Below, one piece after another: positions 193-6,372 of a stretch of DNA of 64,000 nt. The stretch covers positions 3,264,001-3,328,000 of the forward strand of contig CBDCKW010000009.1 of the NCBI GenBank assembly GCA_965218435.1, in the 5' to 3' direction. This DNA is from Truepera sp. Its GTDB lineage: Bacteria > Deinococcota > Deinococci > Deinococcales > Trueperaceae. The notes under the pieces are model-generated. The model was not told where the DNA came from, ran no database searches, and saw nothing but the letters and a program-made list of their open reading frames with translations. The number at the start of each line of letters is the position of its first letter. Positions within the stretch are counted from its first letter, which is position 1. Both the position numbers and the translations under genes were made by a program.

Positions 193-220
193 TTGACATC
201 AGCTGGGCACTCTATATAAT
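193..220 (+). promoter_or_regulatory. Sigma70-type promoter of topA
   Basis: TTGACA (193-198), 16-nt spacer, TATAAT (215-220); AGGAGG RBS before GTG at 274. Confidence 0.8.
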
Positions 221-273: not shown

Positions 274-3216
274 GTGAGTCAGGCACAAAAAAGAAGCGTT
301 AGAGGGGGTGGACTGCGCCGACTTGTCATCGTCGAGTCGCCGACGAAGGCCAAGACCATCCGGCGTTTTTTGGGGCCGTCTTACCGTGTTGAGGCTTCGA
401 TGGGCCACGTGCGCGACCTGCCCGCCTCCGCCGCCGAAATTCCCAGCAGCTATAAAGACCAGGCGTGGGCGCGACTCGGTATCAACGACCGCTTTGAGCC
501 CATCTATATCGTCCCGGCAAAGAAGAAAAAAGTCGTCAGCGAGCTTAGAGCTGCGCTTAGAGACGCCGACGAACTCTATATAGCCACCGACGAAGACCGC
601 GAGGGTGAGTCGATTGGCTGGCACTTGGTCGAGGTCTTAAACCCCAAGGTGCCGGTACACCGGATGGTCTTTCACGAAATCACTGAAGACGCCATCCTCC
701 GGGCGCTGGGCGAAACTAGAGCGATTGACCAGCATTTAGTAGACGCGCAGGAGACGCGGCGGGTGCTAGACCGTTTGGTGGGTTACACACTCTCGCCCTT
801 ATTGTGGAAAAAAGTTGCGCCGAAACTCTCGGCGGGGCGGGTGCAGAGCGTGGCGGTACGGCTCATGGTCTTACGCGAACGTGAACGCATCGCGTTTGTC
901 CCCGCGAGCTATTGGGATTTGAAGGCAAGGCTCGAGAAAAATCAGTACGCCTTCGACGCTGTGATGACGCACTTGGGCGGCGTCCGGTTGGCCACGGGCC
1001 GCGACTTTGACGACGACACCGGCAAGCTCAAAGCGGGTCTGACGGCGGGTAAAGACATTTTGCTGCTCGGTCAAGCTGACGCCAAAGGTTTGGCAGATCG
1101 CCTTAAAAGCCAAGCTTGGCACGTCCATAAGGTCGAAGAACGCACCGGCAAACGCTCTCCAGCGGCTCCCTTTACCACCTCGACCTTGCAACAAGAGGCG
1201 AGCCGCAAACTTGGGTTATCCGCTAAGGAGACGATGCGCCTCGCGCAAGGGTTGTACGAAAACGGCTACATCACCTATATGCGTACCGATTCAACCAACC
1301 TCGCGTCCGAGGCGGTCAACGGGGCGCGGCGGGCGGTCGAGACGCGTTACGGCAAAGAGTATCTGAGCCCGAGCCCGCGTTCGTATAACAAAAAGGCCAA
1401 AAACGCGCAAGAGGCGCACGAGGCGATTCGGCCGGCGGGCGGCGACATGAAAACACAAGCGGAGCACGGTCTGGCGGGGCTCGAGGGCCGTCTGTACGAC
1501 CTCATCTGGAAACGCACCGTCGCCACGCAGATGGCCGACGCCGTGCTCAGATTTGTCACTGCGCGGATTCACGTCGGTGAGGGCAAAGCGCAAGCCGAGT
1601 TTCGGGCTTCGGGCCGCACCACCGTCTTCGCTGGCTTTTTCCGCGCCTACGTCGAAGGGTCGGACGATCCTAACGCGGCGTTAGACGACCAAGAGCAACC
1701 GCTTCCTGATCTGCAAGAACAAGACCCGCTCAACTGTAAAAATCTGGACGCGCTCGGTCACGAGACAAAACCGCCCGCCCGTTTTACCGAAGCGTCTTTG
1801 GTCAAACTTTTAGAACAAGAGGGCATAGGGCGACCGAGCACCTACGCGAGCATCATTGATACGGTCATCAACCGGGGCTACGCCCGCAAAAACGGTTCAC
1901 AGCTCGTCCCGACGTTTACCGCGTTTGCGACAAATAACTTGTTAGAGAAACAGTTTGCACAGTTAGTAGACACCGGGTTTACCGCGCAGATGGAAGACGT
2001 GTTAGACGACATCGCGGCGGGTGACCTCGAGGCTGAACCTTACCTCGAGCGCTTTTACCGGGGGCAAGAAGGGTTAGAAGCTCGGACGCAAACGAGCCTC
2101 GCCGAGGTAGACGCTAAAGCCATCTCGACCCTGCACTTCCCCAAATGGGGCGATTATCTGGTGCGCGTCGGGCGTTTTGGGCCGTACGCCGAGGGTGTGA
2201 TAGACGGCGAAACCGTCACCACGTCGCTGCCAGCAGACCTGCCACCTGATGAAATAACGAAGGAATACCTCGAGAAAGCCCTTACAGAAGGCAACGCCGC
2301 CGACAACGTGGTCGGCGCGTTTCCCGAAACCGGCGAGGTGATGATCTTAAAATCCGGTCCTTACGGGCCGTATGTGCAGCTCGGGGACGACGAGCAAGCG
2401 GGCAAACCCAAACGCACGTCGCTCCCGCGCGGGCTCGAGCCGAGCGCCGTCACGCAGGAACTGGCTGCCGGTCTGCTATCCTTGCCGCGCACATTGGGCC
2501 AGCACCCGGATACCGGGAAAGACGTGCAAGCTGCCATCGGCCGCTTCGGGCCGTATGTCAAACACGGCAGCACCTTTGCGTCTTTGCCCAAAGAGGACGA
2601 TGTGCTCAGCGTCGCCTTACCGAGAGCGTTAGACCTCATCACCAAAAAAGAGTTTAAGAATAAGCCGCTCCGCGTATTGGGTGAGCACCCCGAAACCGGT
2701 GAAGACGTCGAGCTGCGTGACGGGCGTTATGGGCCGTATGTTAAACATCAAAAGACGAACGCGTCTTTGACTACGCAGGAGCCGGACACGGTGACGCTAG
2801 ATGAGGCGTTGGGGCTGCTGGCCGAACGCGAACGGACGCACCCAACGAAGAAGGTAACCGGGACGAAAGCTGCCAAAAAATCTACAGGCAAAAAGAAAGC
2901 AGCTCCTAAAAAAGCCGGGGCGAAGACCGCTAAAAAATCCGCAGCTAAAAAATCCGCCAAGAAACCCGCCGGACCCAAAGCCACCCCACGTCAGCTCGAG
3001 CCCTTTTTAGGCGACTTAGACCCCGAAGTGGCCGAGGTGGTGGTGAAGCTCGAGGGGATGCGCGGCGAGCGTGCCCAGGACATCGCCACCGTTGCCGACA
3101 GCGTCGGCATGTCTGAAGAAGGCGTTAAAGCAGCGCACAAACGCGGGATGTTCAAATTGCGAATGGCGTTTGGGCGGGCACGTAAAGACGCCGAAAACGC
3201 GCCCGTTGCCGCGTAG
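274..3216 (+). CDS. topA: DNA topoisomerase I (type IA) with Topo_C_Rpt repeats, Lys/Ala-rich linker and a C-terminal sigma-70 region-4-like domain
   Basis: VIVESPTKAK TOPRIM, ATDEDREGE, SAGRVQS, catalytic ITYMRTDS, AHEAIRP; four G(R/P)(F/Y)GPY repeats and no Zn ribbons. Confidence 0.98.
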   Translation: MSQAQKRSVRGGGLRRLVIVESPTKAKTIRRFLGPSYRVEASMGHVRDLPASAAEIPSSYKDQAWARLGINDRFEPIYIVPAKKKKVVSELRAALRDADELYIATDEDREGESIGWHLVEVLNPKVPVHRMVFHEITEDAILRALGETRAIDQHLVDAQETRRVLDRLVGYTLSPLLWKKVAPKLSAGRVQSVAVRLMVLRERERIAFVPASYWDLKARLEKNQYAFDAVMTHLGGVRLATGRDFDDDTGKLKAGLTAGKDILLLGQADAKGLADRLKSQAWHVHKVEERTGKRSPAAPFTTSTLQQEASRKLGLSAKETMRLAQGLYENGYITYMRTDSTNLASEAVNGARRAVETRYGKEYLSPSPRSYNKKAKNAQEAHEAIRPAGGDMKTQAEHGLAGLEGRLYDLIWKRTVATQMADAVLRFVTARIHVGEGKAQAEFRASGRTTVFAGFFRAYVEGSDDPNAALDDQEQPLPDLQEQDPLNCKNLDALGHETKPPARFTEASLVKLLEQEGIGRPSTYASIIDTVINRGYARKNGSQLVPTFTAFATNNLLEKQFAQLVDTGFTAQMEDVLDDIAAGDLEAEPYLERFYRGQEGLEARTQTSLAEVDAKAISTLHFPKWGDYLVRVGRFGPYAEGVIDGETVTTSLPADLPPDEITKEYLEKALTEGNAADNVVGAFPETGEVMILKSGPYGPYVQLGDDEQAGKPKRTSLPRGLEPSAVTQELAAGLLSLPRTLGQHPDTGKDVQAAIGRFGPYVKHGSTFASLPKEDDVLSVALPRALDLITKKEFKNKPLRVLGEHPETGEDVELRDGRYGPYVKHQKTNASLTTQEPDTVTLDEALGLLAERERTHPTKKVTGTKAAKKSTGKKKAAPKKAGAKTAKKSAAKKSAKKPAGPKATPRQLEPFLGDLDPEVAEVVVKLEGMRGERAQDIATVADSVGMSEEGVKAAHKRGMFKLRMAFGRARKDAENAPVAA

Positions 3217-3235: not shown

Positions 3236-3685
3236 ATGATGTCAATCCTCTTGGGTAGCTCATTTGCAATCATGACCTGCCTGATTGCACTGCTGCATTT
3301 TTACTGGGCAGTAGGTGGGCGTTTGGGCATGACTGCAGCGGTTCCTAGCAGGGGTAACAAACCTTTGTTTACACCAAGTCCTTTAGCAACGGCTTTTGTA
3401 GGTATTGCCCTGTTGCTCTCAGCTGTCGTGTCGCTTCAGTACATCAGAGTTTTAAGCTTACCTTTACCTCGGGGGCTGGTTTCGCCTTGCATGTGGAGTT
3501 TAGGTATCGTCTTTCTCGTTCGAGCTGTCGGTGACTTTAACTATGTTGGATTTTTCAAACGTCAACTGGGTACACGCTTTGCCAAGCTGGACAGCCGGTT
3601 TTACAGTCCTTTGTGTTTACTGTTAGCAACTCTGGTTTTTGGTGCTATTTATACCGTCCCTGCAGCTACTTCGCCGTTTAACTAG
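3236..3685 (+). CDS. DUF3995-like membrane protein
   Basis: IALLHFYWAVGG, RAVGDFNYVGFFK and YSPLCLLL motifs; four hydrophobic segments; start moved to ATG 3236. Confidence 0.8.
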   Translation: MMSILLGSSFAIMTCLIALLHFYWAVGGRLGMTAAVPSRGNKPLFTPSPLATAFVGIALLLSAVVSLQYIRVLSLPLPRGLVSPCMWSLGIVFLVRAVGDFNYVGFFKRQLGTRFAKLDSRFYSPLCLLLATLVFGAIYTVPAATSPFN

Positions 3686-4034: not shown

Positions 4035-5381
4035 TTACCTAGCCGGACGCAAGAATACCGGACCGGTAGCGTTGACCGCTTCTTCGTAACGCCGCTCGAG
4101 GCGGGCAAAGTCGGTCTCGAGCAAAACCTTTTTGCCGCCTTCACGGAGAAGTTCGGCTTCGTTTAGAAGGGCGCGGCGTAATTCGGTGTTGTCGGTACTG
4201 ACCAAAAGCGTGCCGATAATATCGAGCAAGTGCATCGAAACGAGCATATTGTCGGCGCTGAAGCGGCGAAACTCGCCCAGGGTGTCTTCAACCAAGTTAC
4301 CGAGGTCAATCTGCGGCAAGATGAGCCGGAGGCCGCCCGCTTCATCAAAACGGTGCGACGCGGGTGGTCTCCGCGAAACCATCAGGTGTAGTCCCTGCGC
4401 GATCCGGTCGGCGCAGCGCATCGCGGTCACCGCGTCGTTGACGCCCGGTGACAGCGCACGCAAGGCCATTTCTGAGAGCTGATCGAACAAAAAGTCTAGG
4501 TCGTGCGCGGGGGTACGGCGCGGTCCGAGTGTAAAAAAGTTTGATAGATGCTCGGTTTGGTCTTCCTCTAACACGTTTTTAGGCCACACGAGCGCAACGG
4601 GTTGATCGGACAGCAAAAAGGTACCGGGAAGTTGTAAGCACTGCACCGTCACATTGTGCTCGCCCGCAAAGTTGAGCAACCCGCCCTCGTCTAAGTTTTG
4701 TAGGTAACCGCTGCGGTGCTGCACCAAGGCGACCGCCTGTCCGGTCTGCGGGTCCAGCTCGCGCGGCGTCAGGGTCGCTGGCGCAGCCTCGTCTTCGGGA
4801 GCGGCTTCAGGGTAAAGCTGCCGAATCATTCCCATCAGGTCACCGGCAATCCGCGCGGTAATCGTCGAAGCTTGGATGGATTCGGCGGTGTGGTGGATAA
4901 AGTAGATAAATACCCCGACGTTCAAAAGTGCCAAAACGATAGCCAAGATAATAGACAAGTGCGGGACAAAGGCGGCAACGGTGTCGCTGTCGGTGTGGAT
5001 GGTGCGCAATACGAGCAGACAGTACACATAGGTCGAAACGAACGTGCCGAGCACAATCTGATTGCCCAGGTCGCGCATAAAGTTGCTCAGCAGGCGCGGG
5101 CCGAACTGCCCTGAAGTTAAGGACAACACCGCCAGCGTAATCGAAAAGGTCGTTCCGGCAACGGTAATCATCGAACTCGCTACCGTCGAGACGAGCGAAC
5201 GTGCGCCGTCGGGCTGATTGTAATAACCAAATCCCAGGTTACGAATCGTCTCTAGGCTCAGACTCTGGTCGAGCCGAATCATTAAGGCCGCCAGGACGAT
5301 GGCCCCAAAGGTCATGAGCGACGGCACGAACCAGTAACTCGCACGCAGTGAATCGAAGGTTTTACTCAGCCATTTACGCAT
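4035..5381 (-). CDS. DUF2254 family membrane protein
   Basis: SYWFVPSLM, QFGPRLLSNFMRD and RALSPGVND motifs; ATG 5381 overlaps the mscS stop. Confidence 0.88.
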   Translation of the reverse strand: MRKWLSKTFDSLRASYWFVPSLMTFGAIVLAALMIRLDQSLSLETIRNLGFGYYNQPDGARSLVSTVASSMITVAGTTFSITLAVLSLTSGQFGPRLLSNFMRDLGNQIVLGTFVSTYVYCLLVLRTIHTDSDTVAAFVPHLSIILAIVLALLNVGVFIYFIHHTAESIQASTITARIAGDLMGMIRQLYPEAAPEDEAAPATLTPRELDPQTGQAVALVQHRSGYLQNLDEGGLLNFAGEHNVTVQCLQLPGTFLLSDQPVALVWPKNVLEEDQTEHLSNFFTLGPRRTPAHDLDFLFDQLSEMALRALSPGVNDAVTAMRCADRIAQGLHLMVSRRPPASHRFDEAGGLRLILPQIDLGNLVEDTLGEFRRFSADNMLVSMHLLDIIGTLLVSTDNTELRRALLNEAELLREGGKKVLLETDFARLERRYEEAVNATGPVFLRPAR

Positions 5382-6372
5382 CGTTATTTTTGCTCCCTGA
5401 TTTGGCTCCTGATCCGCCCAGCAATGCTTGGCGGGAGCGTGGCGCACCACCCGAACCACCCGGCCACCCCTCGCGCTGCTGCGTGCGGTCGCCATCTAGC
5501 TCTTCAGTCTGGTCGTGAAACAAAATCTGCTGGGTTGGGTACGGCAGATCAATCCCGTGCTCGTCGTAAAGCACCCGCTTGATGGCGCGGAGTACCTTGT
5601 CTTGCGCTGCCAGGGTGTCGGCCCGTTCCGAGCGTGCCCACCAGCGTACCCGCAGGGCGATGCTCGAGTCGTCAAACGACACCATCAAGACGTCGGGTGG
5701 GGGTTTTTGCAGTACCCCTTCGGTTTTTGACAGCAGCTCGAGCAAGAGGCGCGTCGCTTTCTCGAGGTCGTCCCCGTAGCCGATCCCGAGGTCGTACTCG
5801 AGCCGCCGCACCTTAAACGCCGTATTGACCGTCACCGAATCAATAAACAAGTTCGAGTTGGGAATCACCACGCGCCGCCCGTCGTAAGTGCGGATAAAGG
5901 TTGCCCGCGTTTCGATACTTTCAACGGTACCTTCAAACTCGTTACTGGTAATGATCTGGTCACCGACCCGGAACGGTTCACGCCAAAGGAGCAAAATCCC
6001 AGCGAAGTAGTTTTGCAAAATGTCCCGAAAGGCAAAACCGATGGCAACACCGCTGACGCCTAACGCGCTCAAGAGACTGCTCCCGTTGACCGTCGGAAAA
6101 GCGATGGCCATCCCTAACAAAAGTCCGGCGAGCAGCACCCCGAGCCGAGCCAGTCGGCTGACCGCTTTGCCGAAGCCGGTGCCACGCGTTGCCCGCAAAA
6201 TCAGCCGCCGTACGAGCCCGGAGAGAAAGTAAAACAACACGAAGACAGCTAGACCGACTAAAATACCCGGCAACAGCTGCAAAAAGCTCTTGTATATTTC
6301 GCCGAGTGCGCTCGTTGTCACCGTAACCTGGTTACCCACGGCGTCGGTCAGGTCATTTGCCGGGGCGCTCAA
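5374..6372 (-). CDS. MscS family mechanosensitive channel
   Basis: GFAFRDILQNYFAGILLLWREPFRVGDQI, RTYDGRRVVIPN and IDLPYPTQ motifs. Confidence 0.92.
   Translation of the reverse strand: MSAPANDLTDAVGNQVTVTTSALGEIYKSFLQLLPGILVGLAVFVLFYFLSGLVRRLILRATRGTGFGKAVSRLARLGVLLAGLLLGMAIAFPTVNGSSLLSALGVSGVAIGFAFRDILQNYFAGILLLWREPFRVGDQIITSNEFEGTVESIETRATFIRTYDGRRVVIPNSNLFIDSVTVNTAFKVRRLEYDLGIGYGDDLEKATRLLLELLSKTEGVLQKPPPDVLMVSFDDSSIALRVRWWARSERADTLAAQDKVLRAIKRVLYDEHGIDLPYPTQQILFHDQTEELDGDRTQQREGWPGGSGGAPRSRQALLGGSGAKSGSKNNDA

What the first reader, a model, noticed from the sequence alone, without database searches (positions are those of the whole stretch)
2980..3216. Topoisomerase I fused to a sigma-70 region-4-like domain that lacks its -35-reading residues
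Seen: after four Topo_C_Rpt repeats and a Lys/Ala-rich linker, TopA ends in LGDLDPEVAEVVVKLEGMRGERAQDIATVADSVGMSEEGVKAAHKRGMFKLR. By hand this aligns without gaps to E. coli RpoD region 4 as I recall it ([52 protein letters not shown]). The hydrophobic pattern, the central Gly and the terminal KLR are kept, but the recognition helix TRERIRQIE becomes SEEGVKAAH. Known: sigma4 binds both the -35 element and the RNAP beta-flap tip, and bacterial TopA enzymes contact RNAP through their C-terminal regions. Inference: this may be a sigma4 mimic that tethers TopA to the flap of elongating RNAP, coupling relaxation to transcription. I do not know of a described TopA-sigma4 fusion.
Basis: partly seen in the sequence, partly recalled or inferred. 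Interest (0 to 1): 0.8.

Follow-up and report, generated by a model that had tools for sequence, protein, structure and literature searches.

The report
Topoisomerase I with sigma-4-like tail
The DNA-relaxing enzyme topoisomerase I of this bacterium, and of most of its phylum, ends in a small domain related to the promoter-binding part of sigma factors; it has lost most promoter-reading residues and was kept even when the rest of the enzyme was replaced, so it probably docks the enzyme on a host partner such as RNA polymerase, which is untested.

Summary
Confirmed. TopA (274-3216) ends in a 74-residue domain (2974-3195) homologous to sigma-70 region 4: profile hits RpoS/RpoH/SigA at E about 1e-6, and the model (pLDDT 93) matches sigma-4 folds. 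A profile match occurs in 253 of 265 Deinococcota genomes. Where a partner was identifiable it was TopA. The scan noted this four times before on other DNA. New here: (1) the tail sits on two deeply divergent TopA bodies, mycobacterial-like Topo_C_Rpt and zinc-ribbon. In genome G159 the body was replaced at the same locus while the family-type tail stayed (AU p=0.001). (2) Thermus-like genomes deleted the first HTH helix, so HTH reading of DNA cannot be the shared role. Conservation clusters where helix 1 crosses helix 4 (W541, L544, F596, K597, L598), the end that in sigma carries the flap pocket and the activator patch. Best reading: a tether to RNA polymerase (0.4; flap tip specifically about 0.25). 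Rivals: nucleic-acid binding (0.3), another partner (0.2). The flap pocket is only partly kept, and the tail is lost or tandem-duplicated in some lineages. No binding is shown.

The parts
193..220 (+). Perfect consensus sigma-70 promoter, TTGACA-16-TATAAT, upstream of topA
   Evidence: 12 of 12 matches. At least 11 of 12 with a 16-bp spacer in 15 of 19 family-f1 topA loci, including tail-less ones
274..3216 (+). topA: DNA topoisomerase I, 980 aa
   Evidence: TIGR01051 758 bits against cut-off 456; the only match in the genome at E<=1e-100
322..681 (+). Toprim domain (aa 17-136)
   Evidence: PF01751 E 4e-20
724..2046 (+). Type IA catalytic core (aa 151-591)
   Evidence: PF01131 E 9e-116. Core scores 636-649 bits against PDB 6pcm/8tfg/5d5h (mycobacterial; names recalled) and about 400 against E. 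coli TopA
2155..2835 (+). Four Topo_C_Rpt repeats (about aa 628-854)
   Evidence: PF13368, 4 stretches, E 1.5e-56; start taken from the first GxFGxY repeat in the sequence
2836..2973 (+). Lys/Ala-rich low-complexity linker
   Evidence: Sequence
2974..3195 (+). Sigma-70 region-4-like four-helix domain (aa 901-974)
2986..3015 (+). Helix 1; holds L544 (98 of 98 tails) and position 541 (W in 67 of 98, P here)
   Evidence: sigma-70 numbering anchored on recalled T583
3112..3138 (+). Degenerate recognition helix SEEGVKAAH (583-591)
   Evidence: R at 584 in 1 of 98 tails and Q at 589 in 0 of 98
3139..3186 (+). Conserved basic/hydrophobic end of helix 4, KRGMFKLRMAFGRARK (592-607)
   Evidence: K597 in 97 of 98, L598 in 91 of 98, F596 in all 68 tails outside family f2

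Best explanation
The tail is a sigma-4-derived docking module that tethers TopA to the host's RNA polymerase. It hangs on a flexible Lys/Ala linker and would hold the enzyme at the upstream face of transcribing RNAP, where negative supercoils arise. The binding surface would be the helix-1/helix-4 end, which in sigma factors faces the beta-flap tip, not the HTH. Shown: homology and modelled fold, near phylum-wide presence, decay or deletion of the HTH, clustering of conservation, retention through body replacement. Inferred: that the surface binds a protein, and that the protein is RNAP (about 0.4 overall; the flap tip itself about 0.25).
For: Conservation lies at W541/L544/L548 and F596/K597/L598. 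Papers place 540, 544, 547 and helix 4 (PMC3950348) and L598 (PMC4943231; sigma32 L225/L278, PMC10216364) at the flap or core interface. The HTH is not needed: 8 of 9 Thermus-like tails aligned lack about 10-14 residues with its first helix (the ninth carries a short duplication there), and the model is a three-helix bundle. Residues 583-589 are net acidic in 4 of 5 families. The tail follows the host, not the enzyme: G159 has a zinc-ribbon body but an f2-type tail (tail clade support 100; AU rejects a clade of Zn-bodied tails, p=0.0013, and a clade of f2 cores, p=3e-42). It keeps the same flanking genes as Rpt-bodied relatives. TopA binds RNAP through its C-terminal part in E. coli and M. smegmatis (PMC10969213, passages).
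Against: Position 540 is T in 62 of 98 tails, and the H5 helix that packs on the flap tip in group-1 sigma is replaced by a continuous basic helix. L544 and L598 may be conserved only because they pack helix 1 on helix 4. RNAP has one flap tip, yet tails occur as 2-3 or more tandem copies in 9 genomes examined. The flap-tip helix is nearly invariant across the phylum, whereas much of the tail surface differs by family (596 is F or K). The tail is missing from 5 fully read f1 TopA genes at 4 places in the tree. In E. coli the RNAP-TopoI complex is held mainly by shared DNA, with few and flexible protein contacts (10.1101/2024.10.07.617030). NusA uses the flap tip during elongation (recalled).
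Confidence: 0.4

Rival explanations
1. The tail is an extra, sequence-independent nucleic-acid-binding domain. Exposed aromatic residues (W541, F596, F/Y602) flanked by Lys/Arg grip ssDNA, dsDNA or RNA and, with the Lys-rich linker, raise processivity or keep TopA on the nucleoid.
For: Aromatic plus basic surfaces are how TopA C-terminal repeats bind ssDNA (E. coli passage). Mean net charge is +2.6 to +3.6 in families f2-f5, and in f2 the recognition helix is basic and strongly conserved. Tandem copies suit a polymeric ligand. A basic sigma-4.2 surface binds 6S RNA (reference title only).
Against: Mean net charge in f1 is only +0.3. The HTH is deleted in Thermus-like tails. A generic DNA grip does not obviously explain keeping the host's own tail when a complete incoming enzyme had its own DNA-binding repeats.
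Confidence: 0.3
2. The tail docks on a Deinococcota protein other than RNAP, through the exposed 593-600 face that in sigma-70 binds activators. Candidates are a transcription factor, a nucleoid protein or a replisome protein; it could also be a sigma-4 decoy.
For: K593/R596/K597/R599 form the activator-contact patch of sigma-4 (PMC10570014, passages). In the tail this face carries F596 and M600 in a conserved basic stripe that switches as a block between families, as co-evolution with a variable partner would give. The tail tracks the host family.
Against: No partner was identified: no gene is conserved next to topA across families. The most invariant residues (L544, L598) are on the helix-1/helix-4 side.
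Confidence: 0.2
3. The tail has only an intramolecular or housekeeping role (packing on the enzyme, capping the low-complexity linker against proteolysis), and was kept through body swaps by recombination crossovers in the linker.
For: Lost at least four times in f1. A crossover in the shared low-complexity linker would leave the host's 3' end in place without selection for a partner.
Against: It sits on two unrelated C-terminal repeat types, so it has no common intramolecular surface to pack on. Surface residues are near-invariant within families, for example K597 in 97 of 98. It is present in about 95% of genomes searched.
Confidence: 0.1

Closest known systems
Sigma-70 family region 4 (Pfam PF04545/PF08281; RpoS, RpoH and SigA by sequence; ECF SigR 5fgm and SigmaE 2h27 by fold)
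   Same: Four-helix fold with HTH core (VIA Z 10.1, rmsd 2.1 over 65 residues to 5fgm; Foldseek TM 0.76 to Thermus SigA 5e17). Hydrophobic core positions 544, 548, 551, 577, 580 and 598 kept.
   Different: Not part of a sigma factor (no region 2). R584 and Q589 lost; no H5 helix. F at 596 in four of five families; HTH first helix deleted in Thermus-like genomes; sometimes tandemly repeated.
Actinobacterial-type topoisomerase I (Topo_C_Rpt repeats plus Lys-rich tail; M. tuberculosis and M. smegmatis TopA)
   Same: Same body, four repeats and Lys/Ala-rich stretch; core 636-649 bits to 6pcm/8tfg/5d5h (organism names recalled). Reported to contact RNAP through the C-terminal part (PMC10969213, passages).
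   Different: An extra folded sigma-4-like domain after the Lys-rich stretch. The tail-less f1 enzymes end like the mycobacterial ones.
Chlamydia TopA-SWIB fusion (PMC12445093; search listing and abstract start only; NCBIfam NF004966)
   Same: TopA with a lineage-specific foreign domain appended at the C-terminus.
   Different: Different domain. The Deinococcota tail is related to a part of the transcription machinery and occurs on two different TopA bodies.
E. coli TopoI-RNAP coupling through zinc-ribbon domains (10.1101/2024.10.07.617030, parts 1-2 of 4 read)
   Same: [quoted passage not shown]
   Different: E. coli uses zinc ribbons, beta-prime contacts and shared DNA. Zinc-type Deinococcota enzymes have four C4-type ribbons (16 Cys) plus the tail.
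Sigma-4 mimics and sigma-4-like non-sigma proteins (T4 AsiA; UPF0122 protein 1xsv; KorA; PhyR)
   Same: AsiA binds the flap-tip helix as a mimic of sigma region 4 (PMC6755090, passages). 1xsv, KorA and PhyR share the fold (Z 8.9, 6.6, 7.3).
   Different: None is fused to a topoisomerase; AsiA is not homologous to sigma-4.

Membership tests
Bacterial topoisomerase I (TopA, TIGR01051), Topo_C_Rpt subtype | Toprim plus type IA core above the family cut-off | tested here: met
   758 bits against cut-off 456; PF01751 and PF01131
Bacterial topoisomerase I (TopA, TIGR01051), Topo_C_Rpt subtype | C-terminal Topo_C_Rpt repeats without cysteines | tested here: met
   Four PF13368 stretches
Sigma-70 region 4 domain | Sequence homology to region 4 | tested here: met
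   This tail is under Pfam's cut-off (16.7 against 24.1 bits). 31 of 47 members hit PF04545 at E<=0.1, best 1.9e-8; profile E 7.8e-7 to RpoS
Sigma-70 region 4 domain | Four-helix fold with helix-turn-helix | tested here: met
   Model helices 5-14, 17-27, 37-44, 48-73, pLDDT 93; 15 of the 16 rows at Z>=8 are sigma-4 domains, the other a UPF0122 protein. Predicted, not solved; not met in the Thermus-like form
Sigma-70 region 4 domain | -35-contacting residues (R584, E585, R586, R588, Q589; listed in PMC4943231) | tested here: not met
   R584 in 1 of 98 tails, Q589 in 0 of 98, E585 in 49 of 98
Sigma-70 region 4 domain | Hydrophobic flap-tip pocket (540, 544, 547, 563/565, 598) | tested here: inconclusive
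   544 L in 98 of 98, 598 L in 91 of 98, 547 F/H; 540 mostly T, 563 polar (K in this genome's own SigA too)
Group-1 sigma region 4 | C-terminal H5 helix with hydrophobic residues that pack on the flap tip | tested here: not met
   Continuous helix 4 ending in basic residues; role of H5 from PMC3950348
Sigma factor | Region 2 in the same chain | tested here: not met
   No Sigma70_r2 hit in the 980-aa protein at E<=10
Sigma-70 region 4 domain | Binds the RNAP beta-flap | not testable with these tools
   Needs a binding experiment
LuxR/NarL-type HTH | Closer to LuxR-type than to sigma-4 | tested here: inconclusive
   EsrB Z 7.9, DesR 7.2 and NarL 6.3 against 8.0-10.1 for the top sigma-4 rows. In the own genome the tail profile ranks the two SigA-type sigmas above LuxR-like proteins

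The most novel reading that the evidence does not exclude
Deinococcota topoisomerase I carries a captured sigma-4 domain turned into an RNAP hook. After sigma release it takes the vacated sigma-4 site on the beta-flap and so couples DNA relaxation to elongation. The hook matters enough that it was grafted onto each new TopA body acquired, at least twice, including a same-locus swap between a zinc-ribbon and a mycobacterial-type enzyme.
Probability: 0.25. Interest if true: 0.85.

Novelty: new variant of a known kind. Interest (0 to 1): 0.62.

Why it matters
How topoisomerase I is recruited behind RNA polymerase is unsettled: the E. coli structures show mostly DNA-driven, transient contacts. A folded sigma-4-like domain on TopA across a phylum that holds the main structural models of bacterial RNAP gives a small, deletable element with named surface residues to test. 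If it binds the flap, it would be a topoisomerase using molecular mimicry of a sigma factor and competing with sigma and NusA. Whatever the partner, a host-specific tail kept through in-place replacement of an enzyme body is a clear case of modular gene displacement.

Tried and rejected
Complex prediction of the beta-flap (131 aa, alignment A2) with the tail (A1): score 0.00 in 2 of 2 runs, verdict 'no answer', controls not folded. By the tool's own calibration this is neither support nor evidence against, and it is not used. A second body swap into family f5 with its tail kept: suggested by the trees but not supported by the AU test (p=0.129), so not claimed. Direction of the swaps: not determined, since there is no root or outgroup. 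Chance similarity or wrong frame: rejected. A stand-alone or mobile form of the domain: among the 150 best of 615 hits in 1.84 billion representatives, every hit with a single-domain score of 51 bits or more was a TopA tail or a short fragment of one by motif and linker; below that came true sigma-4 domains. 116 of the 120 listed longer homologues carry a TopA Pfam domain, the other 4 are short fragments. No match in 72,556 plasmid or 50,697 phage records with the single tail. A diverged tail on TopA outside Deinococcota would be missed by these searches. Autoregulation through the perfect topA promoter: unlikely, since the promoter is also present in tail-less f1 genomes and R584/Q589 are gone. 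A conserved partner gene next to topA: none across 11 loci of five families. Foldseek gave no match at E<=0.001 (best 3.5e-3), as usual for a 74-residue query. The Thermus-like three-helix model gave only Z<=6.9, with a UPF0122 protein and sigma-4 domains on top; too weak to weigh.
Full report
OBSERVATION. Window 274-3216 (+) is one open frame of 980 aa. It scores 758 bits on TIGR01051 against a cut-off of 456 and is the only such match in the genome. Pfam gives Toprim, Topoisom_bac and four Toprim_C_rpt stretches. A Lys/Ala-rich linker follows, then the tail at 2974-3195. Alone, the tail gives weak but one-sided hits: Sigma70_r4 E 0.0073, 5 of 5 NCBIfam hits sigma factors, 3 of 3 PDB hits RpoS. 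A 47-sequence alignment (A1) lifts this to E 7.8e-7 for RpoS and 3.1e-6 for RpoH, with SigA chains behind; a few designed repeat proteins also score by summing weak repeats. 31 of 47 members hit PF04545 at E<=0.1. The AlphaFold2 model has four helices, pLDDT 93. 15 of the 16 rows at Z>=8 among 48,161 chains are sigma-4 domains (best SigR, Z 10.1, rmsd 2.1, 65 residues). The tail aligns without gaps to this genome's own SigA region 4.

DISTRIBUTION. Named homologues are Trueperaceae, Truepera, Meiothermus, Deinococcus and Deinococcales, so the window is from family f1 = Trueperaceae (inferred). The profile matches 253 of 265 genomes at least 90% complete at E<=1e-4: f1 71/80, f2 105/105, f3 12/12, f4 57/60, f5 7/7, plus the own genome (one counted genome, G257, is unpublished and enters only this tally). 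Weak matches can be true sigma or LuxR domains, so I re-examined 28 genomes chosen mostly for weak or no matches. In 23 the best match was a TopA tail, in 1 a LuxR-like protein, in 2 SigA only, and 2 had none. Five f1 TopA genes read in full end at the Lys-rich stretch without the tail; they fall at four places in the core tree. Tandem copies occur in G022 (2), G009 (3, a fourth cut by the contig end), G106 (2) and six g38 genomes picked for double matches (2-3). No strong hit was found off TopA. Precomputed Pfam already marks PF04545 on 7 of 120 listed homologues, so the fusion is latent in databases.

ANATOMY. Numbering follows E. coli sigma-70, anchored on the recalled T583 through the own SigA. 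Among 98 tails (f1 32, f2 30, f3 5, f4 25, f5 6; tandem copies counted apart): L544 98/98, K597 97/98, L598 91/98, A577 89/98, W541 in all 66 non-f1 tails, F596 in all 68 non-f2 tails. The -35 contacts listed in PMC4943231 (passages) are largely gone: R584 1/98, Q589 0/98, E585 49/98. Residues 583-589 have mean charge -1.2 to -2.0 in four families but +1.7 in f2. In Thermus-like genera (g35, g57), 8 of 9 aligned tails lack the first HTH helix and model as three helices while keeping W541, L544 and FKLRM. The shared function therefore lies at the helix-1/helix-4 end. In sigma factors that end holds the flap-tip pocket (540, 544, 547, H4, H5: PMC3950348; sigma32 A221, L225, W244, L245, L278: PMC10216364) and, on the outer face of helix 4, the activator patch K593/R596/K597/R599 (PMC10570014). 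The pocket is only partly kept: 540 is mostly Thr and H5 is absent. The 4-residue loop that makes the f1 tail match RpoD without gaps is missing in all other families.

EVOLUTION (new in this report, as far as the earlier notes show). The tail sits on two kinds of TopA. One is the Topo_C_Rpt type (f1, f5, most f2), whose core scores 636-649 bits against mycobacterial structures (names recalled). The other is a zinc-ribbon type with 16 Cys (f3, f4), only 40-43% identical to the first; it scores best against 6ozw (545 bits) and worst against the mycobacterial ones (376-392). G159 is f2 by GTDB code and by rpoB flap (99/96) but has a zinc-ribbon body that groups with f3/f4, while its tail groups with f2 tails (support 100). 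On 29 genes chosen to span genera, AU tests reject a clade of Zn-bodied tails (p=0.0013) and a clade of f2 cores (p=3e-42); the groups were named after seeing the trees, which weakens these p-values. G159's topA has the same neighbours as the Rpt-bodied G062 (aminotransferase IV, DUF218 and MurJ upstream; Dus and M42 peptidase downstream); G154 shares the first two. So the body was exchanged in place and the family's tail stayed. With G159 inside f2, at least two exchanges are needed. The direction is not fixed, the G159 case rests on one assembled genome, and a further swap into f5 is not supported (p=0.129). A crossover in the linker could keep a tail without selection, but phylum-wide retention and invariant surface residues favour selection.

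MECHANISM. Most likely the tail is a docking module, and RNAP is the leading partner: the fold comes from an RNAP-binding domain, the conserved end is the flap-facing one, and TopA-RNAP contact through C-terminal parts is reported in E. coli and M. smegmatis (PMC10969213). Against this: the incomplete pocket, tandem copies for a single flap tip, family-specific surfaces against a near-invariant flap tip, repeated loss, and the mainly DNA-driven E. coli complex. I put the RNAP tether at 0.4, nucleic-acid binding at 0.3, another partner at 0.2 and a structural or neutral role at 0.1. No binding has been shown.

WHAT IS KNOWN. Nine paper searches (listings and abstract starts) returned no description of a sigma-4-like domain on TopA; six of them were aimed at that question. 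Term searches in two reviews of type IA C-terminal domains found 'sigma' 0 times (PMC9369019; PMC10969213). PMC1274311 does not mention TopA. Seen: passages only for PMC9369019, PMC10969213, PMC3950348, PMC6755090, PMC10216364, PMC9388147, PMC4943231, PMC10570014, PMC1274311 and 10.1101/869172; parts 1-2 of 4 for 10.1101/2024.10.07.617030. No supplements were read; those of PMC9369019 may list such architectures. Most subscription papers are not in the library. The scan's own notes hold four earlier reports of the same fusion in other genomes; these are unchecked AI notes and add no support.

VERDICT. Real, near phylum-wide and apparently undescribed: a new variant of a known kind (TopA with an appended lineage-specific domain). 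It is a sigma-4 homologue by sequence and fold, not a -35 reader, and its partner is open. Interest 0.62.

Noticed in passing
window 193-220 (+): Perfect TTGACA-16-TATAAT promoter before topA. 12 of 12 with a 16-bp spacer in 10 of 19 f1 loci and 11 of 12 in 5 more; other families score 6-10 of 12, with 18-19 bp spacers in several f3/f4 loci. A conserved short spacer may tune supercoiling sensitivity (recalled idea, not tested).
   Followed up: partly
L064:1548-2975 (+) = G000:C5:152047-153474: A 476-aa frame in the same genome with a Sigma70_r4 domain (E 1.5e-8, above cut-off, recognition helix intact) fused N-terminally to a tyrosine integrase.
   Followed up: partly
L063 = G000:C9:902817-904031 (+): A second SigA-like sigma factor with an intact TRERIRQIE helix, besides SigA at C9:56716-58161.
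   Followed up: no
L057, L058 (G045:C5, G037:C18): Some f2 genomes carry a second, shorter TopA (687-702 aa) with neither repeats nor tail, on a long branch; possibly plasmid-borne.
   Followed up: partly
L056 (G031:C11): The tail is out of frame with the TopA body right after a run of N in the linker; probably an assembly artefact.
   Followed up: no
G000:C9 upstream of the window; L190: In this genus topA follows a dnaX-like and a recR-like gene (recognised from their translations, no family search). The arrangement was not seen in the other families' loci.
   Followed up: no
P0068, P0078, P0083, P0086, P0088 and others: Many large proteins (300-1700 aa) with 3-8 weak sigma-4-like repeats each; not TopA by BLAST.
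   Followed up: no
window 3236-3682 (+), 4035-5495 (-): Downstream genes: a DUF3995 membrane protein and a DUF2254 membrane protein; no link to the finding seen.
   Followed up: partly
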